Shown: in pieces, positions 27,989 to 64,000 of the stretch
Layout: every line of letters begins with the position of its first letter
How positions within the stretch are numbered: the first letter of the stretch is position 1
Assembly: GCA_963764625.1 (NCBI GenBank)
Contig: CAVXTH010000009.1
Coordinates: 448,001-512,000, forward strand
DNA length: 64,000 nucleotides
Source: Candidatus Krumholzibacteriota bacterium
GTDB taxonomy: Bacteria; Krumholzibacteriota; Krumholzibacteriia; JAJRXK01
Direction: 5' to 3'
The notes under the pieces: generated by a model
The model's input: only the letters and a program-made list of their open reading frames with translations
Databases searched by the model: none
Told to the model about the DNA's origin: nothing
Program-made: the position numbers and the translations under genes

Positions 27989-28369
27989 ACGGATAGTGGA
28001 TTGTATACGGCGCTTTAGCCGAAAAGCGAGCAACGACCTTCGAAACGGGTGCTCCTTGCGCTGTGTTCTCGGTGCGATGATCACGATGAGGATTGATCGT
28101 CGATCCGCGACTCACCCTACCGCAACTCTGTTCGCCCGACATGCGCCCACCTGAGCGGCTTCCACCTATCCTCGTGCGGGTCGTTGCCGCCGATCCGTGC
28201 CAGGTGTCTGAGAATCCGGTCCACCACCGCTGCTTCGTCGATCACCGACACGATCTTCATGGTTACCCCGCACTGCGGGCAGAGCATGGGGTCCACCTCG
28301 AAGATCCTGCGCAGCAGGCGTGCCCAGCTGCGGCTGCGCATGCCGCAGCTCTCGCAGCACCAGCCGTAG
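27989..28369 (-). mobile_element. ISCR/IS91-like ori-side stub, copy 1
   Basis: Starts ACGGATAGTGGATTGTATAC; homologous to 49334 onward with a 105-bp internal deletion; scrambled right junction. Confidence 0.9.
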
Positions 28370-28393
28370 GAAGGGCTCGACGGCTTGTGAGTC

Positions 28394-29230
28394 TCAGTCG
28401 AAATGCTTCTTGAGCGCGTCGAGAACCGAGCTCCACGCGTGGTCGAAATAGTCATACACCTCGTTCCACTGGCCGCCCACACCCCAGCCGATCTGTGACA
28501 GGGTGACCGTCACTGTACCGTCCTCGTTCTCCTCGAATGTCATCACTACTTCGGTGCGGTACCCTCGCTCAGCTTCAAACTTGGGTGGAGCGTTCCAGGT
28601 GAACGCCAGCATAGTCTGTGGCAGATACGCCAGTACCCTACAGCCTTCGCCGCCGCGGTCGCCGGAGGCAGCTTCTTGGTTGAAGTACCATTCATACCGG
28701 CCGCCTGGCTTCAGCTCAATTGCGCTGTTGATCCTAAGGAATTGCCTGAGTCCATCGGACGTCGTGAACGACCGCCAGACATCGCCTATAGGAGCGTTGA
28801 CTCTGACAGTCTTGTCGATTCTCTGGTTCGAGATCTGTTCCGGCAGTTTGTCGCGGCCGTGCATGAGCGATGCAACGAACGGATAGAGCTTGTAGGTATG
28901 GACGCCGGCGACGACCGACGGTTCTTTGTCCATGATTTCGCGGGCTCCGGCTTCGTCGGCGACCTGCAGGACAACGACGCCGCCCAGTCCGAAAGCCGGG
29001 CCGGCCAGAAGCATCGTTCCGTCATACATCAGGTTGCGCAAGTAGACGAAGTGCTTCTCAAGAACCGCTTCTTCGTCCGGAGTCATGTTGCTCGGCCAGT
29101 CGGCGCGGGTCCCCTCGAGCAGCACCAGGAATTGTCTCTTCGGCATAGCATCCTCGGCGGCCGCCCGGTGCGGGAGCGCGAACTGCAGCATCAGACCGAG
29201 CAGCATGAGCGATTGTGTTAGTTTCTTCAT
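28394..29230 (-). CDS. Secreted YciI-domain plus SRPBCC/AHSA1-domain fusion
   Basis: Signal peptide; HFVYL..LAGP YciI-like half; VWRSFTT, LAFTWNAPP and YFDHAW SRPBCC half. Confidence 0.75.
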   Translation of the reverse strand: MKKLTQSLMLLGLMLQFALPHRAAAEDAMPKRQFLVLLEGTRADWPSNMTPDEEAVLEKHFVYLRNLMYDGTMLLAGPAFGLGGVVVLQVADEAGAREIMDKEPSVVAGVHTYKLYPFVASLMHGRDKLPEQISNQRIDKTVRVNAPIGDVWRSFTTSDGLRQFLRINSAIELKPGGRYEWYFNQEAASGDRGGEGCRVLAYLPQTMLAFTWNAPPKFEAERGYRTEVVMTFEENEDGTVTVTLSQIGWGVGGQWNEVYDYFDHAWSSVLDALKKHFD

Positions 29231-29256
29231 TTTCACCGTTCCTGCATTGATGCCTG

Positions 29257-29646
29257 TCACTCCCAGGCGCTCTGCTGTCGCGGCGTGCGCCCGAACTTCT
29301 GCGTGGCGAAACCGAGGAGCAGGCCGACGATGGTGCCGGGGATCATGATCTCAGCGTAGTAGTAGTTCCCCTCGGCGGTCGGCTGCATCGCCACGAGATA
29401 GGCCAGGATGAGTCCGACGGCGCCGCCGAAGAGGATGCCGATCGGGAGCGACGTTACTTTACGGGCAAAGAACCCGGCGGCGAGGCCGACCAGCAGTCCC
29501 TTGATTCCCGAAAAGAACATGATAGATCCGACCATCGACTTCGTTTCGGGATAGAAGAAGCTGGTGGCGCCGTCAATTGCCCCGAGCAGAAGGCCGAGGA
29601 TGATTCCGATCACTGGTTTGGACACGGTAGGTCTCCCTTGGTTCAT
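29257..29646 (-). CDS. Small 4-TM membrane protein
   Basis: Four Gly-rich hydrophobic segments. Confidence 0.7.
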   Translation of the reverse strand: MNQGRPTVSKPVIGIILGLLLGAIDGATSFFYPETKSMVGSIMFFSGIKGLLVGLAAGFFARKVTSLPIGILFGGAVGLILAYLVAMQPTAEGNYYYAEIMIPGTIVGLLLGFATQKFGRTPRQQSAWE

Positions 29647-29699
29647 TGTCCTGCGAGTGTCACCGTTCTATTACACACCGAGACAAATCTCTTTAACTC

Positions 29700-30644
29700 T
29701 CAGCGGAGAAAATACAGAATGACACGCGCCAGGATATAGGCGCACACCAGTAACACAATGAACTTGTTGCGTTTAACGAACCGTAGCGCTCGCTCGAAGA
29801 AATTCTCCGGGTAAGCAAGTACTGTTTGGTTGGCCAGCCACGCCTGGATATCGTCGATCAGCGGCTGGACCGTCGGATAGCGGTCATCCGGATGAGCCGC
29901 GCGACAGGTCGCGATGATCGCCACCAGCGGCCGCGGAATCTTCTTGCCGGACCAATCGACCGGCCGATCGTCCGGATCGGTTGGTGCTCGCCCGGTCAGG
30001 AGATATTGCAGCACACCGCCGAGCGCAAAGATGTCGGCACGGTGATCAATCTGCTCCGCCCCCGCCACCTGCTCCGGCGCCATATAGCCGGGGGAGCCGG
30101 CGACAGTGCTCTCCGCCTCCGGCTCGGTCGTCAGCCGGGCAATCCCCCAATCCATCACCAACAATTCGCCGAACGACCCGACCATGATATTCTCCGGCTT
30201 CAGGTCGCGGTGGATGACGCCGCCCGCATGGGCGAACGCTACCGGTTCGCAGATACGGATAAACAGATCGAGACGGCGTGGGAGCGAACGATCGGGCGTA
30301 CACCACTGGTCGAGCCGTTCTCCCTGCACATGCTTCATCGCATAATAGAAGCGGCCGTCGGGCAGCTCACCCAGATCGTGTACCGGCACAATGCCCGGAT
30401 GCTCGAGGCTGGCGATGATCCGTGCCTCGGCGCGCAGCCGATTCGTCAGGTTGTCCGACATCACCGCGACGGAGATGAGCTTGAGTGCGACTTTGCGCAG
30501 AAGGGCCGTATCCTCGGCTAGCCAGACTGCTCCCATCCCCCCTTCACCCAGCTTTTCGATCAGCCGGTAGCGGGTGTCGGACAAGTCCGGTTGGTCGAGA
30601 AGCAGCCGCAAGTGCCTGAGGTGTTTGTCGGACAGTTCACTCAT
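29700..30644 (-). CDS. Hanks-type Ser/Thr protein kinase with C-terminal TM helix
   Basis: GEGGMG, VALK, HRDLKPEN, DWG, YMAPEQ. Confidence 0.92.
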   Translation of the reverse strand: MSELSDKHLRHLRLLLDQPDLSDTRYRLIEKLGEGGMGAVWLAEDTALLRKVALKLISVAVMSDNLTNRLRAEARIIASLEHPGIVPVHDLGELPDGRFYYAMKHVQGERLDQWCTPDRSLPRRLDLFIRICEPVAFAHAGGVIHRDLKPENIMVGSFGELLVMDWGIARLTTEPEAESTVAGSPGYMAPEQVAGAEQIDHRADIFALGGVLQYLLTGRAPTDPDDRPVDWSGKKIPRPLVAIIATCRAAHPDDRYPTVQPLIDDIQAWLANQTVLAYPENFFERALRFVKRNKFIVLLVCAYILARVILYFLR

Positions 30645-31401
30645 TCGGATTGATTCCCAACAGGCGTCGCACTTCGTCACGGTACTCATCGTCGGTGGCG
30701 GTCAGCATCTTCAATCGTTCCAGCACAATGGCGCGAAAAGTCCGCCGCGCCAACGCGAGATAGTTGGTCACGTCGGTCTGGCGCAGGCCGAATTGCTCGG
30801 CGAGGTCGGCGTAGGACAACCGCAGCGACTGCTCGACCCGATCGATGTCGTACCTTTCAAACAAACGATAGTACACCTCTTTCCCCTGCTGCATGAGCGT
30901 TTCCTTCAGTTGTACCAGAGACGAATCGAACAGCGCCCGCGTCAACTCGATTTCAAACTGCTGCTCGGCCGACGTGCCGCCGGAGGCAAATCGTTCCAGC
31001 TCCCGTTCGGCAACCGTATAGTCGAGCGAGACAACCTCGAGGTCGCCGCCCCGTTTCTGTCGCGAGGCCGCTTTCAGTTCGTTGTTCATCATTCGGTCGA
31101 GGACCGTTCGCAGGTAGGTGCGGAAGCGCGCTTTCGACGGATCGAAGTCGGCCAGGAATTCCTTTTCGATCACGCGGGCAAAAAACTCCTGCGTCAGATC
31201 ACGGGCGTCGTCGCCGCTCCTCTGCCATTTCAACCTGATGTACTTGTACACTGGCTTCCAGTAGACATCGACCAGCGCATGCAGCGCCCGCCGCCGCACA
31301 TCGCGTTCACCGCTGCCGAGCGCCCGGATGGCGGAATAGCGAGTCGGTGGAAACCGGTCGGATCGGTCATGATGTAGGCTGTCGATCATCGCGTGCGCCA
31401 C
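30637..31401 (-). CDS. ECF sigma factor, kinase-associated type
   Basis: FPPTRYS, YWKPVY, DLTQEFF, RFRTYL; overlaps the kinase start. Confidence 0.85.
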   Translation of the reverse strand: MAHAMIDSLHHDRSDRFPPTRYSAIRALGSGERDVRRRALHALVDVYWKPVYKYIRLKWQRSGDDARDLTQEFFARVIEKEFLADFDPSKARFRTYLRTVLDRMMNNELKAASRQKRGGDLEVVSLDYTVAERELERFASGGTSAEQQFEIELTRALFDSSLVQLKETLMQQGKEVYYRLFERYDIDRVEQSLRLSYADLAEQFGLRQTDVTNYLALARRTFRAIVLERLKMLTATDDEYRDEVRRLLGINPNE

Positions 31402-31409
31402 TTTCGCTT

Positions 31410-31449
31410 ACGGATAGTGGATTGTATACGGTGCTTCGGTTTAAGAGCG
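31410..31449 (-). mobile_element. 40-bp ori stub, copy 2a (no cargo)
   Basis: ACGGATAGTGGATTGTATACGG plus a degenerate first hairpin, abutting the next ori. Confidence 0.85.
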
Positions 31450-31880
31450 ACGGATAGTGGATTGTATAGGGTACTTCGGCCGAAAAGCGAGCCTCGACCT
31501 TTGAAACGGGTGCTCTTTACGCTGTGTTCTCGGTGCGATGATCACCATGAGGATTGATCGTCGATCCGCGACTCACCCTACCGCAACTCTGTTCGCCCGA
31601 CATGCGCCCACCAGAGCGGCTTCCACCTATCCTCGTGCGGGTCGTTGCCGCCGATCCGTGCCAGGTGTCTGAGAATCCGGTCCACCACCGCTGCTTCGTC
31701 GATCACCGACACGATCTTCATGGTTCCCCCGCACTGCGGGCAGAGCATGGGGTCCAGCTCGAAGATCCTGCGCAGCAGGCGTGCCCAGCTGCGGCTGCGC
31801 GCAGTGGAGGGTGCCCTGGCGATCGTCGCGTCCTGGGGGTTGGCTCTTGCCCCTCGGGCCCGGTGCGAGTACCAGCCGTA
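31450..31880 (-). mobile_element. ori-side stub, copy 2b
   Basis: Same ori and 105-bp deletion; homology ends at ...ACCAGCCGTA. Confidence 0.9.
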
Positions 31881-32155
31881 ATGCGAATGTGCTGGGTGGG
31901 GTGTTGTTCGGCGTCGGCATCGCGCTTCTGATCGAACGATTCAGGCCGCCGTTTCGAATCGTGGGACTGGGACTCGGCGGGGCGGTGAGCATCAACCTCT
32001 GCGGCGGCGTGGTGCTGGCGCACTGGCTGGCGACGGGTCGTCTGACACCGTCGATGCTGGGCATATTCGCTCTCTGGACGCTCGTGTTGTTGCTCTTCGG
32101 CCTGAGTTTCGTCGAGTTATACAGCCACCTGAAAACGGACCCGCGAGACGTCTGA
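31881..32155 (+). pseudogene. 3' fragment of a membrane protein gene
   Basis: ANVLGGVLFGVGIAL...AVSINLCGG frame begins at the IS junction with no start codon. Confidence 0.6.
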
Positions 32156-32442
32156 CGCGCGTAGACACACTCCAAGCGAAGGCCGCCGAATCCCCGCGTC
32201 CTAACGAGCATGGCCTCGACAACCACGGTCGCGTGGCTCTTGTCGTCGAACTACTTTGTCAGATCGCGGAGCAGCCGATCACGCTCCTGCCGCGCTTGTC
32301 CTCACGATTCCACCGCGGTCATGGAGACATTCGGGAGACGGCGTCCCCGGGTCGGCGGGATACTGGTGGAGCCGGGTGTTTCGCTGTAGTAAACTAGACA
32401 TTTACCGGAACCATCCGCACGCCTGCCCAAACAGGAGAGGTG

Positions 32443-33978
32443 ATGACCGTGCGACACCGACTATTCTGCGGCATCGTTCTTCAATCCCTGGTCCTCATCA
32501 ACACTCCGACCGGCGCCACCACGCGGATCGTCAAACCGGACGGCACCGGCGATGTCCCCACCATCCAGGACGGCGTCAACGCCTCCCTACCGGGTGACAG
32601 TGTGGTCCTCGCCCCGGGCATCTTCACCGGCGTTGGCAACCGGGATGTGGACTACGGCGGCAAGGCCATCGTCGTCACGTCACAGGGCGGCGCGGCGGCC
32701 ACCATCATCGATTGCGAGGGACTGGGACGCGGATTCCAGTTCGTCAACGGCGAGGACAGTACCTCGGTGCTTTCCAACGTCACCATCACCAACGGACACG
32801 AGACTTCGGGTGGAGCGATCTATGCCTTCGGTGCCGCACCCACCATCACGGACAACATCATCACCGGCAACACGGCCGACGAATATGGCGGGGGAATCTA
32901 CTCGCTCGAGGCAACACCCGGAGGGGGGCGGATCGCGCACAACACCATCTCGGACAACGATGTGGACACCGGCATGAGCGGCCTCGGCCGGGGTGGCGGG
33001 ATACTGGCCGAGACCATCCAGGTCATCGAGGACAACACGATTACGAGGAACTCCGCTGACAATGGGGGCGGCGTGTGGTTCCAGGGTACATCGGGCCCCC
33101 TAACGCTCGGCTCCCTGATCAACAACACGATCACCAACAACACCGCGCACTTCCATGGTGGCGGAGTCTATGTCAACCTCGGGGCTCTGTCCCTTGCGGG
33201 GAATCTCATCATCGGGAACTACGCAGCCACTTTGGGCGGCGGCATGTATCTGTTGAGAGTGAACGACGCGATCGAGAATTGCGTGGTGGCCAATGACTCG
33301 TGCGGAGTGATAGGCTCGGGAATCTATCTCTTTCAGTCGTTTCCGACGCTGACGAACGTCACCATGGCGTACAATATGGGGCCCGACGCCATCGCCCTCG
33401 ACCAGAGCTCTGTAACTATCGAGCGATCGATCATCGCGTTCAACAGCGGCTACGCCATTGGCTGCTATTCGTATCTGAGCCAGGAGACCTGCGTGGATTT
33501 CTACGGCAACCAGAGCAATGGGACCTGCGTTTCCGGCAGCGACGTGTTCTACCTCGACCCGTTGTTCTGCGATGCAACCAATGGGGACTATCGCCTCGCA
33601 TCCGGGTCGCCATGTCTGCCCGCCAACAGTCCGTGCGGCCAGCTGGTGGGTGCCTTGCCGGAGTGCGTTGCGACCGGCGTGGGCCCCACGCCACGGACCG
33701 ACGGGGCGGTACTGGAGATCTTCCCCAATCCATTCAATCCATCCACTACGATTCGCTACGGTTTCGCGCGTAGGAACGGCCCGGTGACGGTCGTTATCTA
33801 CGACGTGCGCGGACGCCGGGTGCGCACGCTGGTGAACGAACAACAAGCCGCGGCGGTGCGGTCGGTGAAATGGGACGGGCGCGATGACAACGGTGTCGCG
33901 GCGGGTTCGGGTGTCTACTTCTGCCAGGTCAAAGCACCCGGCGTTCTGGCGGCGCGTCGCATGGTGCTCCTGAAGTGA
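32443..33978 (+). CDS. Secreted right-handed beta-helix protein with FlgD-Ig tail
   Basis: PTIQDG, NxA..GGG repeats, DPLFCD, PNPFNP tail. Confidence 0.85.
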   Translation: MTVRHRLFCGIVLQSLVLINTPTGATTRIVKPDGTGDVPTIQDGVNASLPGDSVVLAPGIFTGVGNRDVDYGGKAIVVTSQGGAAATIIDCEGLGRGFQFVNGEDSTSVLSNVTITNGHETSGGAIYAFGAAPTITDNIITGNTADEYGGGIYSLEATPGGGRIAHNTISDNDVDTGMSGLGRGGGILAETIQVIEDNTITRNSADNGGGVWFQGTSGPLTLGSLINNTITNNTAHFHGGGVYVNLGALSLAGNLIIGNYAATLGGGMYLLRVNDAIENCVVANDSCGVIGSGIYLFQSFPTLTNVTMAYNMGPDAIALDQSSVTIERSIIAFNSGYAIGCYSYLSQETCVDFYGNQSNGTCVSGSDVFYLDPLFCDATNGDYRLASGSPCLPANSPCGQLVGALPECVATGVGPTPRTDGAVLEIFPNPFNPSTTIRYGFARRNGPVTVVIYDVRGRRVRTLVNEQQAAAVRSVKWDGRDDNGVAAGSGVYFCQVKAPGVLAARRMVLLK

Positions 33979-34018
33979 TATGGAAAGCGGAGTCTCGTTG
34001 GCAAACAAAAGTTTGGTG

Positions 34019-34265
34019 ACGGATAGTGGATTGTATACGGCGCTTTAGCCGAAAAGCGAGCAACGACCTTCGAAACGGGTGCTCTTTGCGCTGTGTTCTC
34101 GGTGCGATGATCACCATGAGGATTGATCGTCGATCCGCGACTCACCCTACCGCAACTCTGTTCGCCCGACATGCGCCCACCTGAGCGGCTTCCACCTATC
34201 CTTGGGCACACCGTACCCCCGACGCTCGTGCTGTTGCGCATTCGTCGGGAGGCTGAGGGTACTGG
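34019..34265 (-). mobile_element. ori-side stub, copy 3 (247 bp)
   Basis: Homology to the full element ends at ...GAGGGTACTGG. Confidence 0.9.
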
Positions 34266-34483
34266 CTGACCAAGTCGGGCAGGCAGCGAAAGATCGGCAA
34301 GATCGTCAGCGGTGGAGGTTGTGCTCTGGTGGTTCTTGCGGTGAGCGTGGCGGTGCTGACTCTTCTGAGCTGGGTGAGTCTGTAGGCAACCGCGGCGGAG
34401 TTGAAGCGATTCGGATTTCGTCGCATAATGGAATGGTCGCGGCATATTGATTGATCTGCACATTTGCAAGGTTGGTAAAGCTC

Positions 34484-35059
34484 ATGAGATGTGGAATTGC
34501 CTGCGGGCTGTTACTCTCGTTGCTCCTTTTCCTCGCTCCGAGCACGAACGCACAGGATGTCCCGGGAAATGTCTTCTTGGGAGTGCCCTCAATTCTCACT
34601 CACTACGTGCTCGTGTGTCTTCCTCCCGAGGGGGGCGTCTACGCGCTCGCCACTGAACCGCTGGAGCCGGTGAAGTCGGTGCGCTTCCAGGTCACCTGGC
34701 CGGACGGAGTCGATCACGATCAGGGGAGCGTGATCTGGCCGGGCGCGGTCGATGTCTCCGAACCCGGTGACGACATCTGGGACATCGTGTTCGAGGAATG
34801 TCGCGACAAACCGGGCAGCACTCTGTACCTCGTGAACTACGGAGGGGTGGATTATTACGGTCAAAGGGGCTGGATGTGCCCGTATGGTGACGTGGTTCCC
34901 CGACCGGTGTGGACGCTGTGTTCCGGGGAAACCATCGAAGCCTCGCTCTTCGACATGGGCCCTTCCTGGGTGGATGGCTGTTCTCCTTTTGGAAACAACT
35001 TCTGCGAGGTCATCCCCGCCCAGGCGCAGAGCTGGGGCACCCTGAAGTCCAGCTACTGA
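34484..35059 (+). CDS. Secreted hypothetical protein ending SWGTLKSSY
   Basis: Signal peptide, Cys-containing body, conserved-looking C-terminal motif. Confidence 0.7.
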   Translation: MRCGIACGLLLSLLLFLAPSTNAQDVPGNVFLGVPSILTHYVLVCLPPEGGVYALATEPLEPVKSVRFQVTWPDGVDHDQGSVIWPGAVDVSEPGDDIWDIVFEECRDKPGSTLYLVNYGGVDYYGQRGWMCPYGDVVPRPVWTLCSGETIEASLFDMGPSWVDGCSPFGNNFCEVIPAQAQSWGTLKSSY

Positions 35060-35079
35060 GAATGAAGTGGAGAGGATCG

Positions 35080-35418
35080 ATGGATCGCAAGAAGGCCGTT
35101 CGAGACTATTAGGAGTCCGCGCGCCCGGCGGGAGTCTACCGCGTGCAGCACACGCCGAGCGGCCGCACTCTTTTGGGATCCAGTCCCGATGCGCCGGCGA
35201 TGCTCAACCGCATTCGCTTTCAGTTGCAGACGAAGGGGCATCCCAATCGCAAGCTTCAGGCCGACTGGAATGCCGATGGCGCGGATGCCTTCACCTTCGA
35301 AGTCTTGGATCTGCTGCCGCCCACCGAGAACGAAGTGAAGGACCCGGCCGCAGAGTTGGCCGCTCTCGAGGAATTGTGGCAAGACAAACTGCAGATCGCG
35401 GAAGAGCTGCGCTACTAG
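35080..35418 (+). pseudogene. GIY-YIG family small protein with in-frame TAG at 35110
   Basis: MDRKKAVRDY*..AGVYRV..RFQL..HPNRKLQADW; the second copy has AAG at this codon. Confidence 0.7.
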
Positions 35419-35510
35419 TCTCGCCATGAACATTGACTGGCACGAAGAGGCCAGCTTCAGATAGGATTTCATTTCTAAACCACCGGCCACGTATTCCCAC
35501 GAGGGCAAGC

Positions 35511-56268: not shown

Positions 56269-59049
56269 ATGTCCACTGCCTGGCGTGTCGGGAGCTGGTG
56301 TCATCGGCTCCGGCCGCTTCTACTCTACCTCCTCATTCCCCTTCTCATCCTCGGACCTCACGCCTCGAGTTCGCACGCGGCGAGTCCGGATTCCCTGGCC
56401 ACGCAGCCGGACACGGCAAACAGCAGCCACCTCCTGCGTGCCCGACTCGACAATGGGCTCCGGGTGGTAATCGTTCCAAAGCCGCAGGAAGTGCTCGTCC
56501 GAGCTCTCCTCCTCTACGATGCCGGTGCCTGTCGCGAGCCGGAGGGCAAGGGGGGACTCGCCCACCTCGTCGAGCACCTCATGTTCGCGAGCAGTGCCCC
56601 AAGACCCGACGAAAGCTTGCGTCAGCGACTGAGACTGCACGCGATCGACGATCGTGGCTGGACCAGCTCCTTTGCCATGGGCTACCAATGGGATTGTCTA
56701 CCAGAAGAGCTTCCCGTTTTGCTCGAGATCGAAGCCGAGCGGATGGCCGGTCTCGCGTTGAGTGAAGCGACCTTCGAACGGGAACGAAACGTCGTGTTGC
56801 GGGAGAAAGATTTCCGTGGCGAGAGAGACGCCTGGGAGGAATTGATCTCGAACTGCTACCGCGCCGCCTACAAGGGGCATCCGCTCGGACGCGATGTCTC
56901 CGGAACCGTCGAGTCCGTCTCGCAGCTCAGTCTGCAGGACGTGCGCGAGTTCCACGAGGAATACCTCCGGCCCGGTCGCGCGATCCTGGTGATCGAAGGG
57001 CCGGCGTCGCCCCAGATCGTCGTACGGCAAGTCCGCAAGAGCTTCGAGCCAGTACAGAAGCCCGGCTCGGGAACCGAGGCCACACTGCCTTCGCTTCCAA
57101 AGCTCGCGCACCACAGTGTGATCAGTGATCGACCCGATTTTCAGGGCTTCCAGGTTGCTTACGGATTGCGGACTCCAACCCGAACCCCGCACGACCTGGT
57201 CATGAACGCCATCCTGTGCGAATTGTTGGACTCCTGGGTGGGTGCGCTCAGTTCCTACTCCATGGGCAAAGAGAGGCTGCTCGTGGTCCATCGCTGGTAT
57301 TCTCGGTACTTCGCGGGCCCGGAGTTTGTCACCATGGAGGTCAACGCGGACTACGATGCCCAGGAGGCTCTGTCCTGGCTCTGGAACGACATCGTGAGGA
57401 GTGGCCGTCATCTGCGAAACAGGATCAGGTTTCCTGCCATCATCGAAGGGGCACGCCGACGACTTTCTCAGCACGGTTTGCGCTCCGGTTCGGATCTCAC
57501 GGATCTCGCCATGAACGAGCTGGCGGTCGGTCCCACCGCGTCGTTGAGCGTTTTGGACTCGATTCTATCGAAAGTCGACGAGGAAGATTGCCTGGAGTAC
57601 TTCCATCGCGCGATCAACAACGAGTGCAGCGTCAACACAGTCGTCCATGGCAAGGGATCCAAACGCAAGCTCGAGCTCAATACGGTGGGAATGGCCAGCG
57701 CGACCGCGCAGGACAGTACTGGCTACAAGCCGGCACCGAGTCCCGATCCGGAACGGCTCGAGGAACTCCTGCAACTCTACGAGCGCTGCGGTCTACCCAG
57801 GATGGAACGAGTCTCTCTGCCCGATCAGGGCAGCTTGTACTTGTGGGAGCAACCCGAGAGCCAGGAAATGCGTGTGGCGGGTCTGCGGTGTTTCCGCGGC
57901 CTTCGAGACCTCGAAGCCTCGGGTAAGCCGGGAATGAACGCGCTCTACAACGTCACGGCGTCCTATGCATCCAGGCGGGATGACCCGGATGAGGAACCGG
58001 AAATCTATCACCTTCCCTACGGAACCAGATTCCTTGCTGATGCCTTCGAGTACAACTTCTCGGCCCATGGCCGAAGCGAGGACCTGGACGGGATACTCTC
58101 CACTTTGTCAGAGCGGTTGAACAAGAAGGGGCTCGATGCCGCTGCGTGGGGAAGAACCTTGAGGCATGTCGATCTCTGGTTCGCGAAAGACTATGTGGAT
58201 GCGCAATTGCTCGCTCAACGGTATCGGCGCTCACTCGTCTTCGGTCCAGAGCATCCTTCTCGCTATTCCGAGATTTGCCCCCCCGAGACCTATGACAAGA
58301 TCAAATACAAAGACATCAGCAAATTCCACCAGAACCTCGCATCCCGGGATGGACTCCTGTGGTTCGCGAGCGGAAGAGTTGATTCGGCCCGGCTGGTTCG
58401 CGCTCTGCCGAAGCTGATCAAACGGGACAAGAAGCCGAAACTGATGGAAACCATCCCGGGCGCTCCTCCGCTGAAGCGGATCAGCGGTCGCATCTTTCCC
58501 GCATTCGAGTGCTCGGACGCAAGAGTCGTGCTGTCGTTGCCTGCGATCGACGTGTCCGCGGTGCCGAATGCCTGGGCCCACTGGGAGATTCTGCGGGCCA
58601 TGTTGCACCAGCAGCTCTTCCAAGAACTCCGCGAAAGGGAGAGCCTCGTCTACGTAGTCCAAGCGGACGAGGATCTCCAGGGAGACCGGTTCTCTCTCAC
58701 GATCAGCGCCAGCACGTCTCCCGAACGAGCGGAACGGGTATTCTCGATCCTGTGCGAGTTTCTGAAGAGAGTTCGATCACGCGCGGTCGAGGAGTCTCCC
58801 TTCCTGCTCGCCAAACTCGATGCAATCCACCATCTGCTGCGAGCAGAGGAAGATCCTGCTCTCGCTCTCGCCCGAATGGAGTGGATGGCGCGGTTCGGTC
58901 CCATACCAGAGAATCCCACTGAGGAACTCATCGATCTGGACCTGGCCTCCTTTCAGAGCTTCCTAAAACAGACCGTAAACCCGGACGCCTTCGTCTTCAC
59001 CGTCGTGGGCCCGATCCTGGAGGATGAGATCGAGAGTTTTACCTTCTGA
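56269..59049 (+). CDS. M16 (insulinase/pitrilysin) zinc peptidase
   Basis: LDNGL, GLAHLVEHLMF (HxxEH), ERNVVLRE, LRERESLVY. Confidence 0.85.
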   Translation: MSTAWRVGSWCHRLRPLLLYLLIPLLILGPHASSSHAASPDSLATQPDTANSSHLLRARLDNGLRVVIVPKPQEVLVRALLLYDAGACREPEGKGGLAHLVEHLMFASSAPRPDESLRQRLRLHAIDDRGWTSSFAMGYQWDCLPEELPVLLEIEAERMAGLALSEATFERERNVVLREKDFRGERDAWEELISNCYRAAYKGHPLGRDVSGTVESVSQLSLQDVREFHEEYLRPGRAILVIEGPASPQIVVRQVRKSFEPVQKPGSGTEATLPSLPKLAHHSVISDRPDFQGFQVAYGLRTPTRTPHDLVMNAILCELLDSWVGALSSYSMGKERLLVVHRWYSRYFAGPEFVTMEVNADYDAQEALSWLWNDIVRSGRHLRNRIRFPAIIEGARRRLSQHGLRSGSDLTDLAMNELAVGPTASLSVLDSILSKVDEEDCLEYFHRAINNECSVNTVVHGKGSKRKLELNTVGMASATAQDSTGYKPAPSPDPERLEELLQLYERCGLPRMERVSLPDQGSLYLWEQPESQEMRVAGLRCFRGLRDLEASGKPGMNALYNVTASYASRRDDPDEEPEIYHLPYGTRFLADAFEYNFSAHGRSEDLDGILSTLSERLNKKGLDAAAWGRTLRHVDLWFAKDYVDAQLLAQRYRRSLVFGPEHPSRYSEICPPETYDKIKYKDISKFHQNLASRDGLLWFASGRVDSARLVRALPKLIKRDKKPKLMETIPGAPPLKRISGRIFPAFECSDARVVLSLPAIDVSAVPNAWAHWEILRAMLHQQLFQELRERESLVYVVQADEDLQGDRFSLTISASTSPERAERVFSILCEFLKRVRSRAVEESPFLLAKLDAIHHLLRAEEDPALALARMEWMARFGPIPENPTEELIDLDLASFQSFLKQTVNPDAFVFTVVGPILEDEIESFTF

Positions 59050-59103
59050 CTACCGCCTAGTCGCGGCGAACGTCATGGCTCTTCGATCAGGTCGAAACAA
59101 ACA

Positions 59104-59129
59104 AGCGCCCGGTGTCACCACCGGGCGCT
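59104..59129. terminator. Hairpin between convergent genes
   Basis: AGCGCCCGGTG-TCAC-CACCGGGCGCT. Confidence 0.7.
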
Positions 59130-59156
59130 GTTGTCAGGTAGAGTATAGGACGGAGC

Positions 59157-59415
59157 TCAGCTCTTCTCCTTCATCTTCTCTTCCTTCTTCATCATCTTAG
59201 CCATCTCGGCCTTGTTCTTCTCGGCCCAGGCATGAAGCTCGGCGACGACCTTCGGATTGTCGGAGGTAATGACCGCGATATCGCCGTTCTTGGTTTGAAC
59301 GTCTTCGTAGTGGGCGCCCTTCATCATACAGTTGGTGAGCGCGGTACAGCTTCCGCACAGGGTCACGGCTTCACCGGCCTGAATCTTCTTTTGGCAAGCC
59401 GCCATATCCATATGG
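59157..59415 (-). pseudogene. 3' fragment of a Cys/Met-rich protein, cut by ori copy 9
   Basis: Frame runs to the ori junction; LCGSC motif. Confidence 0.55.
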
Positions 59416-60117
59416 TCGGATAGTGGATTGTATACGGCGCTTTGGACGCCGAGCGAGCAACGACCTTCGAAACGGGTGCTCTTTGCGCTGTGTTCTCGGT
59501 GCGATGATCACCATGAGGATTGATCGTCGATCCGCGACTCACCCTACCGCAACTCTGTTCGCCCGACATGCGCCCACCTGAGCGGCTTCCACCTATCCTC
59601 GTGCGGGTCGTTGCCGCCGATCCGTGCCAGGTGTCTGAGAATCCGGTCCACCACCGCTGCTTCGTCGATCACCGACACGATCTTCATGGTTCCCCCGCAC
59701 TGCGGGCAGAGCATGGGGTCCACCTCGAAGATCCTGCGCAGCAGGCGTGCCCAGCTGCGGCTGCGCGCAGTGGAGGGTGCCCTGTCGATCATCGCGTCCT
59801 GGGGGTTGGCTCTTGCCCCTCGGGCCCGGTGCGAGTACCAGCCGTAGTATCTGACCAAATGCTGGCGCGGTGCGGGGATCTGGGCGCACAGACGGCGGAT
59901 CCTGCATGGATAGGGGAGGCCAGAGAGCATGGCAACACAACCCTTGTCGAGGTGGCACGGGCTCTTCAGGTGCATGTGATTTCGCGTAGACTTGGGCCGG
60001 CGATCAAGTTTGTTGAACTCGCGCCGTTACTCGTCCGTCGGAAGCCTGGGCGGCATCGTATAGTCGCGCCGTCGCCCCCTTGAAAAACTTCATCGAAGCC
60101 CATTGCACACTCATCTG
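59416..60117 (-). mobile_element. Non-autonomous two-ended mini element (702 bp), copy 9
   Basis: Both ends of the full element retained; 105-bp and 983-bp internal deletions. Confidence 0.92.
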
Positions 60118-60271
60118 TTTGTACTATATTGCATCTACGCACCGCCACCTTTTCTTTGTCTGATCGTGCGGCGTTGCCAATGGGTGAATGGGAATGTGAT
60201 CCTTGAACTGCACATGCTGCGTGGGTTAAGCTCGATTTCGTTCCCCATCTCCCTCATTTCCGAGGACATTC

Positions 60272-60956
60272 ATGAACCGACTCAAGCCCGTATTGCGTGC
60301 CGTTGCATGTTTGGCCGCCCTTGCAGCATTCGGATCCTGCTCGGACAGCAAGAGCCCCACTGCCGGAAGCGGTACCTGCGGTGACGAAAGCGTACACTGC
60401 GTTTACGCGATCATTCATACCGCCGACTGGAGCACTGGTGTGGACTACCTCGGATCTAGACTGGACCAGACCGACTACTACGGTACCACCGATCTGCCGC
60501 TCGCGAACATCGAGGGCGTGTCTCCGGGAGACCAGATCTACGTCGGAATCACTCTGTCGCCCGCCCTGGTCGTCAGCAGCAACATACCTCCTGAGGTAGT
60601 CTTGCAGGTGGCCGGGGCACTCCTGGGTGGAAGCACGGATCTCGTGGTACAGACTGAACCGTCTATCTCGATGCGGGGTGACTGGCAGACCATACAGTAT
60701 CCGAGGGTCAATCTTCGCGGCAAGAGCGACGACAGGCAACTGTGACAGCATGAACGCAGAGTGGAGAGCGACGGGGTTGTCGGCGGGTGACGAGCTGCGC
60801 GGCTTTTCCCTCAGCTTCACGGTTCCCGAAACCTGGTCGAACGGTACGTCGATACGGGCAAGCCAGACCATTCCGGTCGAACGAATCGACTGGATCGCGT
60901 CACTCTCGGGTGATACCAGCGGGGAGGTCCCTCCCATCCAGTTGAAGGAGCGATGA
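60272..60956 (+). CDS. Hypothetical lipoprotein (apparent frameshift near 60740)
   Basis: GAGGA RBS, lipobox FGSC; reading continues in the 60627-60956 frame. Confidence 0.55.
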
Positions 60957-60985
60957 TCAAAGAGGCGGTTGCCTGGCTCCATGAC

Positions 60986-63900
60986 CTAACGCAGCAGAGG
61001 TGATCCGGCGGGTCTGTACCGTGCCGGGAATTTGCAGCCTTGCGAAGTAGGTGCCCGAAGCGAGCGCGGCTCCGCTGTCATCTCGTCCCGTCCAGCTGGC
61101 GCTGTGCGTTCCAGAAGTCTCCTCCTCGTCAACGAGTGTTGCGACCCGCCGGCCTCGCACGTCGAACACCTCGAGGCTCACGCGTCCTGCGCGTGGCAGC
61201 CGGTAGTTCAGAAGGGTTCGCCCGCCAAAGGGATTCGGGCTCGGGGGCGCGAACCAAAACTGCGTCGCCGCAATGGGCGTGGCCGCGGTGCCGAGAAGCG
61301 CTGTCCGCAGGTCTGTCTCGGTCAACGAGTTGTACGGAAGCCCGATCCAGGGACTGAATTCGAAATAGGGACTGCGCGAGCGAAAGCGCAGCCGCCAGTG
61401 ATACGCGGTCTCCGAAGTGGCACCGGTGACGGGCTGCTCGAGAGCGACCGCGCTCCCTGCCGAAGTGGGTGCACCCGTGTCGGTGTAGGGACCCCTCTGG
61501 AGCACCCCATCGAACGGGACTCCGACCGGCTTCACCTCGTATTCCATTTGGACTCTGGTACGTCCCGCCGGGCATCGGCCCAGCGCCTTTAGGGCCCAGG
61601 CGGTTTGGACGTTGGACGCGCCGAGCAAATCGATCGGGGCCGAACCGTCGTACTGCGCCTGGCGCGGTATCTTGGGGAGACCGTTGCCGTCGTTGCCAGG
61701 GTGCAGGTAGATCTGATCGAAGCCCCACTTGGTCACCAGCAAATCGGTAAAACCGTCTCCGTTCACGTCGCCGGCGGTGGCAACGACTTGGCCCATCGAA
61801 GCATCAGCCTGATTCGATTCGAAGAACCACTCGTCGCCGATCGGAGGAAAGCTCGACGGTGCGCCGAAGAATACCGTCACCTTCCCCTCGAATTGCTGGC
61901 CATGACTGTACCGCGGCGAGCCGACCACGATATCAGAATACCCGTCTCCATTCAGGTCGCCTGCGTAGCCAACCGAGAGCCCCAGATTCTCACCCAAAGT
62001 CCCCAGGCGACTCCAAGCCTCGTTTTCGTCGATCCCCGTTGGACCACCCAGGTGCACTTGCACGATTCCGTCGAGCGATTGACCCCCGAGCACGATGTCC
62101 GAGTATCCGTCACCGTTCAAATCGCCGGCACTATCCACCGCCACGAGATTGGTGCTGGGAGTGCTCAACCAACAATAGGCCTGGGGGATGAGTTGAAGCC
62201 CAGAGGGAGATCCGAGGTACACCATCGCCACTCCGCGGTTGTCGCCGAAACCGGAGAGCGTCCGAAAATTCCCGACGAGCACGTCAGAATACCCGTCGGC
62301 GTTGACATCTCCGGCGCTCGCCACCGTGTTTCCCACGCCCTCTCGCGTGACGGACCACGAGGGCGATGTCTCCAAACCGGTGGCGGACCCACGGAACAAA
62401 TATGCCGTGGAACTGCCAACCCCATCCGCTCCCACCAAGACGTCTCCGTAACCGTCTCCATCGACGTCGCCAGCATCCGAAACGGCAGATCCGAACAAGC
62501 TGTTCTGCGCGTCTCCCACTTTGGACCACGAGGACGTAATGGAGAGTCCACTCGGACCTCCGTCGAACTCGAAGACCTTCCCTTCACCACCTTGGCTGGC
62601 GTTGAAATCGGGGTCGCCCACCAGTACGTCGGTGTACCCGTCGCCGTTGACATCCCCAGCGAGCGAGACCGAAGCTCCATACGACTGAGGTGCCGCTCTG
62701 CGAGCTCGACCAGGAGGGACTCGTCGACAGCCCGTACGCAGTTCCCAGATACAGGCGGGCGCGCCCATGCCCGGACATGAAGTTGCTGTAGTTGGGGGCG
62801 CCGACGATGACGTCCGAATAGCCGTCGCCGTTCACGTCTCCCGCCGTCGAAGCCGCGTGTCCGTTGTCGGTATCGGCGGCTCCGTCCGAAGCGATCCAAC
62901 CGGGCGCCTCCGAGGGATATCGTTGTCCACCCGTAAAGACCCACGCTGTGCCGAGGTTGGAGTAGTTGGGACTCGTGAGATCGCGGTAGGGTTCTCCTAC
63001 GATGATCTCGGAGAAGCCATCCCCATTGACGTCTCCCGCGGTGCACACGGCGCTGCCGAATTGCGTATCGAAAGAGCCAGAAGTTCGTGTACAGGGGGAC
63101 GTCGAGGGTCCAGCGGAACTCCCGAAATACACGGAAATGTGTCCCTGGTATCCCGGTGCGCCCGGGCTGCCGACGATGATCTCGGCGTAGCCGTCGCCGT
63201 CAAGGTCACCTGCGGTGGACACTGCGATACCGTAACGCTGCCCGGTGACCACCCCGACCTGAGTCCAGACCGGCGTGGTGGCCAGACCAGTGGGACCTCC
63301 CAGATACACGTCGGCCCTGCCCACCACGTCGACTAAATTCGGTGTGTACTTGGGAGCACCCACGATCACGTCGGCGTAGCCGTCGCCATTGACGTCACCT
63401 GCAGTGCAAACCGAGGTGCCGAGTTGTGAACCCAAGCCCCCCGTGACGGACCAATTCTCCGTGCCTCCGATCCCAGAAGGGGATCCGTAATAGGCGAAGA
63501 CCTTGCCGTTGTCGTTGGCAGTGTTCCCGAACGCGTCGTAGCCCGGTGCTCCCACGAGGATGTCGTCATAGCCGTCGCCGTTGACATCGCCCGCAGTCGC
63601 TACCCAGCTGCCAAAATGTGCGCTTTCGGTCCAACCAAAGAGGACTGCATCGTAGGAAGTCGAAGGTCCACTGGGAGAGCCATAGTAGACATAGACTGCG
63701 CCAGACTCGGCCCCCAATAGACCGCCCCCGACACCACGGGCACCCACGACGACATCGGCATACCCATCGCCGTTGACGTCGCCAGCCGTGCATACCGAGC
63801 TGCCGAACAGGGCGCCGGCCAGGTTGATTTCGGCCGTCCAGTCGGGGCTGCCCGAGATCGGGTTGGGCGCGGTAGAGCCGAACCAGATGTAAGCGCGCCC

Positions 63901-64000
63901 TTCCCCAGATTCGCCGTTGGTGTATTGCCAGGCGCCGACGATGACGTCGTCGTAACCGTCGCCGTTGACATCGCCGGCCGCCGAAACCGAGTTTCCAAGA
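60986..64000 (-). CDS. Large FG-GAP/integrin-alpha repeat protein with FlgD-Ig tail (runs off window; several frameshifts)
   Basis: Many AGDVNGDGYxDxxVGxP repeats across three frames; PNPF...SGTYFARL tail. Confidence 0.85.

What the first reader, a model, noticed from the sequence alone, without database searches (positions are those of the whole stretch)
27989..64000. Head-to-tail ISCR/IS91 ori-end array collecting gene cargo: a possible integron analogue built by an HUH transposase
Seen: ten copies of the end (A)CGGATAGTGGATTGTATA, all in the same orientation, at 27989, 31410, 31450, 34019, 37236, 39021, 49334, 52526, 54613 and 59416. Each has a sharp ori boundary and a variable-length element remnant (40-1790 bp). 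Except for the 40-bp stub, each is followed by 1.4-10 kb of unrelated DNA, largely signal-peptide, lipoprotein or FlgD-tail genes. Only one transposase is intact, and no copy occurs in the first 28 kb. Known: IS91/ISCR HUH elements start rolling-circle transposition at oriIS and can co-mobilise DNA on the ter side. Inference: one transposase acting in trans has repeatedly stacked ori+cargo modules at one locus, giving an ordered cassette array for surface and secreted proteins with no integrase or attC sites.
Basis: partly seen in the sequence, partly recalled or inferred. Interest (0 to 1): 0.93.

Follow-up and report, generated by a model that had tools for sequence, protein, structure and literature searches.

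The report
Rolling-circle transposon array stacking captured DNA
A rolling-circle (IS91-type) jumping gene in an uncultured Krumholzibacteriota bacterium has built a 45-kb island of about a dozen head-to-tail modules, each starting at the element's origin end and carrying DNA picked up elsewhere, some of it from a sister species' chromosome.

Summary
The 18-mer occurs 10 times in the window, all on the + strand, against 0 expected. In the 3.57-Mb genome there are 11 exact copies, one diverged relic and one partial relic, all in this locus and all in the same orientation.

The element is a distant IS91-family member with a Y2-HUH transposase. The repeated end lies on the oriIS side, downstream of tnpA.

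The array fills a 44.9-kb island (window 22416 to 67331-equivalent). Two congeners have an empty site there. A third has the island at the same site with different modules.

Each module is an ori, a ter-side-truncated stretch of IS, then foreign DNA that ends at the first base of the next ori. One cargo is 98% identical to a sister species' core chromosome and is cut at both ends.

Short tandem "stubs" of the ori terminus (14-40 nt) mark the nick site.

My best reading is that one-ended rolling-circle products were joined at resident ori nick sites. The integron-like "cassette platform" function is not supported. I class this as a new variant of a known kind.

The parts
22416..64000 (.). Genomic island. 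It continues to window-equivalent 67331 and is 44,916 bp in all.
   Evidence: In G004 the left flank ends at the equivalent of 22415 and the right flank starts 4 bp later at the equivalent of 67332. G001 has a 152-bp spacer at the same site.
26037..26098 (+). Partial, decayed ori relic (profile positions 27-87)
   Evidence: nhmmer with the ori profile: E 1e-4 genome-wide and 2e-8 locally
27989..28339 (+). Unit 1: ori plus IS remnant (IS positions 1-184 and 287-456)
28340..31409 (.). Unit 1 cargo: AHSA1/YCII protein, a 129-aa membrane-like ORF, a Ser/Thr kinase and an ECF sigma factor, all on the - strand
   Evidence: Pfam. No close DNA match in 5 relatives.
31410..31449 (+). Unit 2: 40-nt stub, a copy of the ori terminus through the first hairpin that directly abuts the next ori
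   Evidence: An independent metagenome contig (X2 record 12) spans 31177-31513.
31450..31880 (+). Unit 3: ori plus IS remnant (positions 1-184 and 287-536)
31881..34018 (.). Unit 3 cargo: beta-helix protein with a FlgD_ig/Por_Secre tail (32440-33978, +)
34019..34265 (+). Unit 4: ori plus IS remnant (positions 1-247)
34266..37235 (.). Unit 4 cargo: 202-aa, 91-aa, DUF4386 and DUF1579 genes. It is a captured copy of a sister species' core chromosome.
   Evidence: 97.8% identical to G003:C20:89359-92329. That record continues on both sides and is collinear with G000's own C5 at 76-83%. The cargo ends at the base before the ori at 37236.
37236..37670 (+). Unit 5: ori plus IS remnant (positions 1-118 and 304-630)
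   Evidence: The G002 homologue has positions 1-630 undeleted.
37671..39020 (.). Unit 5 cargo: 380-aa lipoprotein-like ORF with no Pfam hit
   Evidence: 99.5% identical to the G002 array across 37344-40035.
39021..39119 (+). Unit 6: ori plus a 99-nt remnant
   Evidence: The same 99-nt remnant is present in G002.
39120..49333 (.). Unit 6 cargo mosaic: IS30-type HTH fragment, NosD/beta-helix gene, IS3-family element (41621-43140), PT-HINT fragment, beta-propeller ORF, IS66-family element (45883-48258) and an AIPR gene
   Evidence: Pfam. The IS3 and IS66 copies are 98.6% and 100% identical to copies in the G002 array and are single-copy in G000.
49334..51123 (+). Unit 7: the only full-length element copy (1790 nt). 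It has no terminal inverted repeats.
49588..50964 (-). Intact IS91-family Y2-HUH transposase (458 aa), with HPHVH and YYGWY motifs seen by eye
51124..52525 (.). Unit 7 cargo: 308-aa ORF (-) with no Pfam hit
52526..52772 (+). Unit 8: ori plus IS remnant (positions 1-247). It is a copy of unit 4.
52773..54612 (.). Unit 8 cargo: a shorter copy of the unit 4 cargo. It stops inside the DUF4386 gene exactly at the next ori and carries 6 single-base deletions.
54613..55892 (+). Unit 9: ori plus IS remnant (positions 1-1280, transposase residues 117-458)
55893..59415 (.). Unit 9 cargo: M16 peptidase (56269-59049, +) and an 84-aa ORF
59416..60152 (+). Unit 10: internally deleted (MITE-like) element with both ends (positions 1-184, 287-591 and 1573-1790) plus 35 nt shared with unit 11
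60153..64000 (.). Unit 10 cargo (runs to 64443): FG-GAP/FlgD_ig genes. It is a xenologue of the native locus G000:C7:243-247 kb.
   Evidence: 73.5% nt and 80.6% aa identity to C7. G003:C37 and G002:C17 hold syntenic homologues at 76-87%.

Best explanation
The locus is a genomic island assembled mostly by an IS91-family rolling-circle element.

On the + strand each module begins at the element's oriIS nick site (N|ACGGATAG...). It continues into the element for a variable distance. That distance ranges from a 40-nt stub, through remnants of 99 to 1280 nt, to the full 1790 nt. The module then carries whatever DNA lay beyond that copy at an earlier location.

Proposed mechanism, in order:
1. Ori-anchored derivatives of the element insert at chromosomal sites, in this lineage or in relatives. 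These derivatives arise by premature termination, normal termination or short read-through.
2. Because they lack a working terIS, the next rolling-circle round reads through into neighbouring DNA. This is one-ended transposition.
3. The 3' end of the displaced strand is joined to the 5' end made by nicking a resident ori. The transposase may do this directly. Alternatively the strand is closed into an ori-cargo circle that then recombines with a resident ori.

Repetition stacks modules head-to-tail on the ori side of a founder copy. That founder's relic abuts the right flank. Homologous recombination in the flanks and between ori repeats then moves modules or whole islands between species.

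Shown: the family assignment, the anatomy, the genome-wide confinement and orientation, the foreign origin and exact limits of the cargos, the duplicated module, the stubs and the empty sites.
Inferred: the joining chemistry, action of the single transposase in trans, and the order of events.
For: 1. Family and polarity. Pfam gives Y2_Tnp (5.8e-26) and Zn_Tnp_IS91 (4.2e-21). NCBIfam transpos_IS91 scores 196 bits against a cut-off of 125. The repeated end lies 254 nt past the tnpA stop. There are no terminal inverted repeats.

2. All copies are anchored at the ori. In G000, 11 of 11 IS copies start at IS position 1 and all losses are internal or on the ter side. This matches the products measured experimentally for IS801. 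Those were 229-, 360- and 679-nt ori-end fragments, and read-through products carrying 290-1431 nt (PMC3189936, passages read).

3. Confinement and orientation. G000 has 12 forward and 0 reverse ori hits, all in one locus. G002 has 0 forward and 13 reverse, 10 of them within 44 kb of one contig. In 208 genomes of the phylum only these two have more than 3 hits.

4. The cargo is foreign and precisely bounded. Window 34265-37235 is 97.8% identical to G003:C20:89359-92329. The match starts at the end of the IS remnant and stops at the base before the next ori. G003's DNA continues on both sides and is collinear with G000's own C5 at 76-83%. The cargos of units 10 and 11 have native paralogues at 80.6% and 86.6% aa identity elsewhere in the genome.

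5. A module was copied as a unit. Unit 8 is 99.2% identical to unit 4 and shares 39 derived differences against G003. It ends inside the DUF4386 gene exactly at the next ori.

6. Stubs. Tandem copies of the first 40 nt of the ori occur in G000, and of the first 14, 28 and 38 nt in G002. Each directly abuts a full ori. This is what nick, short extension and rejoining at this site would leave.

7. There is no consensus in the 12 sequences that precede the oris. This fits arbitrary 3' ends rather than a target motif.

8. Site occupancy. G001 and G004 have an empty site. G002 has an island at the same site with a different set of modules. A metagenome contig (L101) is 99.7-99.8% identical to G002 but lacks about 4.9 kb between two oris.

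9. IS91 transposes through a bottom-strand ssDNA circle with joined ori and ter ends (PMC13181058, passages read).
Against: - Nothing here shows the joining step itself.
- The same final structure would arise from RecA-type recombination between an ori-cargo circle and a resident ori.
- Clustering is not specific to this element. The genome's only rve hit above the cut-off and its IS66 are also in the island, and no DDE_Tnp_1 was found. So the island may simply be where foreign DNA arrives or is tolerated.
- The left 3.6 kb of the island (22416-25991) has no recognisable ori at its left edge.
- The IS91 hallmark of a conserved tetranucleotide next to oriIS is not seen.
- The true terIS is undefined. 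Units 10 and 11 share 35 nt that unit 7 lacks. The other full-length copies (G002:C8, L081) sit at the same founder position, so they cannot settle it.
- Hairpins at the ori can be drawn, but covariation is not above the controls.
- Related elements in Eisenbacteria, Planctomycetota and two other metagenome loci show no ori repeats within 10 kb on either side (0 of 4 loci). If stacking is a property of the element, it belongs to this lineage only.
- Most junctions rest on this one MAG assembly. Public contigs covered only pieces.
- G000 and G002 share ancestry of parts of the island, so they are not two independent replicates.
Confidence: 0.6

Rival explanations
1. Rolling-circle capture makes the same ori-cargo circles, but stacking is done by host homologous recombination. 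Double-stranded ori-cargo circles, or incoming DNA from another species' array, recombine with resident ori remnants (100-250 bp or more of at least 90% identity). This is the model proposed for ISCR1 modules rescued by homology.
For: It yields exactly the observed cargo|ori junctions and the uniform orientation. Identity between G000 and G002 is 98-100% in the right part of the island and decays to about 75% over about 1.7 kb of the flanking gene, a signature of homologous recombination. L101 has a hybrid ori relative to G002. [quoted passage not shown]
Against: The stubs of 14-40 nt start at the first base of the ori and are too short to be recombination substrates. They point to activity at the nick site. 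For IS91, double-stranded circles were not inserted by TnpA (no transformants), but bottom-strand ssDNA circles were (PMC13181058). That result concerns the transposase, not RecA.
Confidence: 0.2
2. Safe-haven accumulation. Ordinary insertions of full-length copies land in a tolerant, horizontally acquired island. Deletions and rearrangements then remove the ter sides. There is no ori-directed process.
For: The island also holds the genome's only IS3-family and IS66-family copies and an IS30 fragment, in an otherwise IS-poor genome. Internal deletions do occur after insertion: unit 5 lacks positions 119-303 that its G002 homologue keeps. For IS801, most natural fragments were attributed to reorganisation rather than one-ended transposition (PMC3189936).
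Against: All 12 of 12 copies share one orientation (two-sided p about 5e-4 if orientation were random). All 11 of 11 copies retain the ori, and none in G000 is truncated on the ori side. DNA on the two sides of the remnants has different origins (units 4, 9 and 10). A duplicated module ends exactly at an ori. The stubs also argue against this.
Confidence: 0.1
3. Adaptive, integron-like cassette platform. The ori array exists to collect, order and express genes for secreted and surface proteins.
For: Modules are stacked at one site. About 10 of 21 island proteins look secreted or lipidated by eye. Three carry FlgD_ig hits, one below the cut-off. Module content differs between close relatives.
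Against: Gene orientation is mixed relative to the ori. The cargo includes gene fragments (PT-HINT, IS30 HTH, truncated DUF4386), other insertion sequences and a decaying duplicate. No tyrosine recombinase lies in the island: 6 of 6 PF00589 hits are on C6 or C2. No expression data exist. The background frequency of secreted proteins in this genome was not measured.
Confidence: 0.06
4. Assembly artefact: repeat-driven chimeric joins in a metagenome-assembled genome.
For: The genome is a MAG. A 98% G003-like segment inside a G000 contig could in principle be a chimeric join. I could not lay raw reads of the source sample.
Against: Most repeats are only 99-430 nt and sit in a 1.13-Mb contig. The unit 4 junction occurs twice in different contexts. 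G002, an independently assembled MAG, shares 37344-40035, including the unit 5|unit 6 ori junction, at 99.5%. Metagenome contigs L101 (three oris in one orientation on 6.3 kb) and L081 show the same architecture. A salt-marsh contig spans the unit 1|stub|unit 3 junctions.
Confidence: 0.04

Closest known systems
IS91 / IS801 / IS1294 one-ended rolling-circle transposition
   Same: Y2-HUH transposase with a Zn-binding N-terminus. Distinct ori and ter ends with no inverted repeats and no target duplication. Ori-anchored truncated products and read-through capture of DNA beyond ter. An ssDNA circle intermediate. (PMC3189936 and PMC13181058, passages read.)
   Different: Under 40% aa identity to any plasmid-borne relative. 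No conserved tetranucleotide next to the ori. All copies lie in one head-to-tail array at one locus instead of being dispersed. Stubs of the ori terminus are present. No orf121-like gene is seen in the 159-nt leader.
ISCR elements in resistance islands (ISCR1 modules in complex class 1 integrons, ISCR2 arrays)
   Same: IS91-like elements, often truncated, flanking captured genes. Circular element+cargo modules and tandem copies are reported (PMC3940617 and PMC7722449, passages read). The 'gene-capturing system' idea of Toleman et al. 2006 is recalled, not read here.
   Different: Not a member of ISCR clade Ia (182 bits against a cut-off of 925). The cargo is not resistance genes. There are about 12 different modules rather than repeats of one module. 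A donor sequence with both capture breakpoints is identifiable. The host is an uncultured environmental phylum.
Helitrons (eukaryotic rolling-circle transposons)
   Same: Truncation and read-through create new 3' ends and capture host DNA. Circles with a precise head-to-tail junction form. [quoted passage not shown]
   Different: The Helitron transposase carries a helicase domain. Helitrons insert at AT dinucleotides and are dispersed genome-wide. Here there is a single bacterial locus.
Integrons
   Same: Site-directed, same-orientation stacking of acquired modules at one locus. Module content differs between close relatives.
   Different: No IntI tyrosine recombinase in the island. No attC-type module ends. 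No common promoter logic, since gene orientation is mixed. Modules are 1.4-10 kb with several genes, fragments and other insertion sequences. The resemblance is to the outcome only.
IS91-associated catabolic gene cluster with circular cIS91sdpA (Sphingobium herbicidovorans)
   Same: Several IS91-family copies within one gene cluster, with one-ended transposition proposed and an element+cargo circle detected (PMC5737581, passages read).
   Different: It has few copies and lies on a megaplasmid, and its duplications were attributed to tandem repeat duplication. No ori-anchored nested remnants or stubs are described in the passages I read.

Membership tests
IS91 family (rolling-circle insertion sequences) | Y2-HUH transposase with an N-terminal zinc-binding domain | tested here: met
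   Pfam Y2_Tnp 92 bits (cut-off 20.9) and Zn_Tnp_IS91 75 bits (cut-off 26.3). NCBIfam transpos_IS91 196 bits (cut-off 125), profile positions 4-355 of 356. HPHVH and YYGWY read by eye.
IS91 family (rolling-circle insertion sequences) | Two different ends (oriIS downstream of tnpA, terIS upstream) and no terminal inverted repeats | tested here: met
   No inverted pair joins the two termini among the 21 pairs listed. The end sequences differ. The repeated end lies downstream of the tnpA stop.
IS91 family (rolling-circle insertion sequences) | Subterminal hairpins at oriIS | tested here: inconclusive
   Two hairpins can be drawn at positions 23-40 and 41-67, and 77.6% of cells pair. Covariation is not above the shuffles (62 of 500 reach it). 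Folding z-scores range from -2.2 to +0.9.
IS91 family (rolling-circle insertion sequences) | No target-site duplication | tested here: met
   The flanks of the complete copies (units 7, 10 and 11) show no direct repeat. This was read directly from the sequence.
IS91 family (rolling-circle insertion sequences) | Conserved target tetranucleotide (GTTC/CTTG type) abutting oriIS | tested here: not met
   The 12 sequences preceding the oris share no tetranucleotide. In the model they are arbitrary 3' ends of the preceding module, so this may reflect the array context rather than the element's target rule.
IS91 family (rolling-circle insertion sequences) | One-ended transposition products (ori-anchored truncations, read-through with flanking DNA) | tested here: met
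   These are structural footprints only. 11 of 11 copies are ori-anchored with variable 3' extents. A module with captured DNA has been duplicated. Units 10 and 11 share 35 nt beyond position 1790.
IS91 family (rolling-circle insertion sequences) | Transposition activity and nick at the ori boundary | not testable with these tools
   This needs biochemistry or genetics. The stubs that start at the first ori base are indirect evidence.
ISCR (clade Ia) | Transposase reaches the NCBIfam ISCR_clade_Ia model cut-off | tested here: not met
   182 bits against a cut-off of 925
Integron | IntI-type tyrosine recombinase adjacent to the array | tested here: not met
   PF00589 search of the whole genome: 6 of 6 hits are on C6 and C2, none on C9. 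None was found among the 31 island or flank ORFs scanned with Pfam.
Integron | attC sites bounding single-gene cassettes in one orientation | tested here: not met
   Modules are bounded by IS91-type oris and hold 1-10 kb with genes on both strands. No attC model was run.

The most novel reading that the evidence does not exclude
In this reading, the oriIS nick site of this IS91-family element works as a dedicated integration site. The transposase joins the 3' end of any strand it has displaced to a nicked resident ori. This makes a recombinase-free, self-targeting platform that stacks genes. Its ori-to-ori modules can be copied, lost and swapped between species' arrays. The platform samples core chromosomal DNA of related species. 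If so, the same chemistry could explain how ISCR-type multi-gene regions are built.
Probability: 0.35. Interest if true: 0.8.

Novelty: new variant of a known kind. Interest (0 to 1): 0.6.

Why it matters
Gene capture by IS91/ISCR elements is widely assumed, but the evidence is largely circumstantial. PMC4778049 says so in its introduction.

This locus is a natural record in which several features are readable from sequence:
- the donor sequence;
- both capture breakpoints;
- the carrier remnant;
- the landing junction;
- a later duplication of the module.

The array suggests a concrete, testable rule: incoming strands are joined at resident ori nick sites. That rule would explain head-to-tail IS91/ISCR arrays in general.

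The locus also documents recent gene flow between species of an uncultured phylum. Island DNA is 98-100% identical between genomes whose flanks are about 80% identical.

An HUH enzyme that integrates ssDNA next to its own ori could also be useful as a tool.

Tried and rejected
- Hairpin support: the folding energies of the ori and ter regions, and a pair count on 17 ori variants, gave no significant signal. I claim only that hairpins can be drawn.
- True terIS: I looked for an independent full-length copy at another site. G002:C8 and metagenome contig L081 both sit at the same founder position with the same right flank. I cannot say whether the 35 nt shared by units 10 and 11 are element or flank.
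- Consensus at remnant 3' ends and unit 3' ends: none seen.
- Left edge of the island: a sensitive nhmmer scan of 22300-22800 found no ori.
- G005 (another genus, transposase 55-64% identical): 11 of 12 transposase fragments on contig C28 are on one strand. I could find only 1-3 ori-like ends and a messy repeat structure, so I did not use it as a replicate.
- Distant relatives (L045, L047, L097, L124): no ori repeats within 10 kb on either side.
- G052:C26 has two ori-like 19-mers 27 nt apart. These proved to be a 27-nt tandem repeat with no transposase and no ori-profile hit nearby. I rejected it as unrelated.
- In the phylum scan, the 29 singleton or low-count hits at 3 mismatches in 23 other genomes compare with 11 hits of the reversed control. 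I did not interpret them.
- G003: there is no transposase or IS hit, but its contigs end near this locus. C8 ends at the equivalent of window 18000-18622, and no orthologue of the right-flank gene was found. G003 therefore says nothing about presence or absence of the island.
- Read laying: all four runs are short contigs. Most junctions have no cover, which proves nothing. One joint (27962 to 39194, side 29) was too weak to use.
- No tRNA and no Rfam family in the window.
- Supplements of the cited papers could not be seen. The supplementary figures of PMC4778049 on abutting Helitrons, and the annotation files of PMC3189936, may bear on how new the head-to-tail arrangement is.
- Literature searches for a described ori-targeted IS91/ISCR array found none in the listings and passages I read. 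This is not proof that none is in print.

Full report
OBSERVATION

The 18-mer CGGATAGTGGATTGTATA occurs 10 times in the window, always on the + strand, with none expected in 100 shuffles. The window is G000:C9:448001-512000 of a 3.57-Mb, 9-contig genome.

In the whole genome the exact motif occurs 11 times, all on C9 in the + orientation. The extra copy is at window-equivalent 64445. A blastn search with the full-length copy (49334-51123, 1790 nt) gave 17 segments, all in this locus and all co-oriented.

A profile built from the ori copies found two further sites. One is a diverged relic at 67230-67323 (+). The other is a partial relic at 26037-26098 (+). Nothing else in the genome scored below E = 1.

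With the preceding base, the units start as follows:

| Unit | Start | IS content |
|---|---|---|
| 1 | 27989 | positions 1-184, 287-456 |
| 2 | 31410 | 40-nt stub |
| 3 | 31450 | 1-184, 287-536 |
| 4 | 34019 | 1-247 |
| 5 | 37236 | 1-118, 304-630 |
| 6 | 39021 | 1-99 |
| 7 | 49334 | 1-1790, full length |
| 8 | 52526 | 1-247 |
| 9 | 54613 | 1-1280 |
| 10 | 59416 | internally deleted, both ends present |
| 11 | 64444-equivalent | same derivative as unit 10 |

WHAT THE ELEMENT IS

The only intact frame, 49588-50964(-), matches Pfam Y2_Tnp and Zn_Tnp_IS91 and the NCBIfam IS91-family model above their cut-offs. It does not reach the ISCR clade Ia model. Its translation shows HPHVH and YYGWY motifs by eye.

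It is under 40% identical to any plasmid-borne relative in PLSDB. The element has no terminal inverted repeats and no visible target duplication.

The repeated end lies downstream of the tnpA stop, which is the oriIS side in IS91-family elements (PMC13181058 and PMC3189936, passages read). The + strand therefore reads 5'-ori to ter-3'. This is the polarity of the strand displaced in rolling-circle transposition.

Titles of the sister genome's records name the group as Candidatus Krumholzibacteriota.

THE LOCUS IS AN ISLAND

In congener G004 the stop codon of the left-flank gene (window 22415) and the stop of the convergent right-flank gene (equivalent 67332) are 4 bp apart. In G001 they are 152 bp apart. 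The island is therefore 22416-67331, or 44,916 bp, and none of the cargo is resident DNA of this site.

G003 is uninformative, because its contigs end near the locus.

Congener G002 has an island at the same site, in the opposite contig orientation. Its flanks are 78-84% identical to G000. Thirteen of its 13 ori hits are on one strand, 10 of them within 44 kb.

Its modules mostly differ from those of G000, but some pieces are nearly identical:
- window 37344-40035 at 99.5%, which includes the unit 5|unit 6 ori junction;
- an IS3-family element at 98.6%;
- an IS66-family element at 100%;
- unit 11 with its cargo and the relic ori at 98.8%.

Identity falls from 98-100% inside the island to about 75% over roughly 1.7 kb of the right-flank gene. 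This pattern is expected for transfer by homologous recombination in the flank.

A metagenome contig (L101) is 99.7-99.8% identical to the G002 array. It lacks about 4.9 kb between two oris and has a different ori variant at the junction.

WHERE THE CARGO COMES FROM

Window 34265-37235 is 97.8% identical to G003:C20:89359-92329. The match begins at the last base of the 247-nt IS remnant and ends at the base before the next ori.

In G003 the DNA continues on both sides. The whole G003 region is collinear with G000's own contig C5 at 76-83%. So G000 carries both its native orthologue and, in the array, a near-identical copy of a sister species' version.

Unit 8 repeats unit 4 (ori, 247 nt of IS, and cargo) at 99.2%. 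The two share 39 differences against G003, so they descend from one capture event. Unit 8 stops inside the DUF4386 gene exactly at the next ori and has six single-base deletions.

The unit 10 cargo (FG-GAP genes) has a native paralogue on C7 at 73.5% nt and 80.6% aa identity, with syntenic homologues in G003:C37 and G002:C17. The unit 11 gene has a paralogue on C3 at 86.6% aa.

The other cargos have no close relative in the genome.

For units 4, 9 and 10, the DNA on the two sides of the IS remnant matches different places in relatives. These remnants are therefore not simple insertions into a pre-existing stretch.

FOOTPRINTS AT THE ORI

A 40-nt copy of the ori terminus directly precedes the ori of unit 3. 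G002 has three more such stubs, of 14, 28 and 38 nt. Two of them are identical to the ori that follows. L081 may have a 6-nt stub.

All stubs start at the first base of the ori. The 12 sequences that precede the oris share no motif.

MECHANISM

The anatomy fits known IS91-family behaviour. IS801 produces ori-anchored fragments of 229, 360 and 679 nt, and read-through products that carry 290-1431 nt of neighbouring DNA (PMC3189936). IS91 moves through a bottom-strand ssDNA circle in which the two ends are joined (PMC13181058).

I propose three steps:
1. Ori-anchored derivatives land at chromosomal sites.
2. Lacking a working ter, they read through into adjacent DNA.
3. The 3' end of that strand is joined to the 5' end of a nicked resident ori.

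Repeating these steps grows the array on the ori side of a founder, whose relic abuts the right flank. The stubs would be the same reaction after only 14-40 nt of synthesis.

The anatomy, cargo provenance, module duplication, orientation and confinement are shown. The joining chemistry, action in trans and order of events are inferred.

RIVALS

Homologous recombination of ori-cargo circles with resident oris gives the same structure, and I cannot exclude it. The flank gradient and the hybrid ori in L101 show that recombination does act here.

A pure safe-haven account gains some weight from two results. The island also holds the genome's only rve hit above the cut-off and its IS66-family element. 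No DDE_Tnp_1 was found. It does not explain the 12 of 12 co-orientation, the 11 of 11 ori-anchored copies, the exact cargo|ori junctions or the stubs.

An assembly artefact is unlikely, for four reasons. The repeats are short relative to a 1.13-Mb contig. One junction is shared with G002. L101 and L081 have the same architecture. A salt-marsh contig spans unit 1|stub|unit 3. I could not check every junction with raw reads.

The integron-like functional reading lacks support. Gene orientation is mixed. The cargo includes fragments and other insertion sequences. No tyrosine recombinase lies in the island.

COMPARISON AND NOVELTY

The element is a distant IS91-family member. It meets the family's protein and end features but lacks a conserved ori-adjacent tetranucleotide in this context.

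Multi-copy IS91/ISCR regions with captured genes, element+cargo circles, tandem modules and abutting Helitrons are all described (PMC3940617, PMC7722449, PMC5737581 and PMC4778049, passages read).

Four features go beyond what I read in those passages:
- a roughly 12-module, single-locus, single-orientation array made of ori-anchored remnants;
- the ori stubs;
- a capture event with identified donor DNA and both breakpoints;
- exchange of modules between species.

In four literature searches I found no description of ori-directed stacking. Related elements in other phyla showed no arrays in 0 of 4 loci examined. In 208 genomes of the phylum, only G000 and G002 carry this ori in numbers. I class the finding as a new variant of a known kind, with interest 0.6.

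Noticed in passing
window-equivalent 64444-70200 (L018:444-6200) compared with G002:C9: Identity between the two species is 98-100% in the right part of the island. It decays stepwise (97, 94, 92, 88, 79, 74%) across the flanking gene 67332-68963. This looks like a recombination tract from inter-species transfer of the island.
   Followed up: partly
window 45883-48258 and 41621-43140: An IS66-family element is 100% identical, and an IS3-family element 98.6% identical, to copies in the G002 array. Both are single-copy in G000. Their order and orientation are inverted relative to the oris in G002.
   Followed up: partly
window 40036-40201: A repeat of about 165 bp has 89-95% copies in G002:C3, G003:C32 and G003:C14, and an 84% copy on G000:C4. 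It may be a small non-autonomous mobile element.
   Followed up: no
window 48255-49274(-) and 43773-44375(+): An AIPR (abortive-infection type) protein gene and a pretoxin-HINT fragment lie inside unit 6. This is defence or polymorphic-toxin debris within the island.
   Followed up: no
G005:C28:9000-42500 and G005:C6:1-15000 (L036-L040): Another genus carries many fragments of a 55-64%-identical IS91-family transposase. On C28, 11 of 12 are on one strand, which suggests similar arrays. The ends are too decayed for me to define units.
   Followed up: partly
G002:C8:488684-502376 and G002:C9:218898-228743: The G002 MAG holds two copies of the right flank (83-84% to G000). One lies next to a full-length IS with a TAG stop in the transposase, and the other next to the internally deleted derivative. 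G002 has about 7% contamination, so this may be two strains binned together.
   Followed up: no
IS positions 185-286 (window 49518-49619): A 102-nt segment is present in units 4, 7, 8 and 9 but absent from units 1, 3, 10 and 11 and from L101. This is an indel polymorphism that defines two lineages of the element.
   Followed up: no
window 62269-64000(-): Ten copies of a repeat spaced about 190 nt apart lie within an FG-GAP repeat protein gene. This is ordinary repeat-domain structure, not part of the IS array.
   Followed up: no
whole genome G000: The genome is poor in insertion sequences. The only rve-domain hit above the cut-off is in the island. A weak hit on C6 is below the cut-off. There is no DDE_Tnp_1 hit.
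   Followed up: partly
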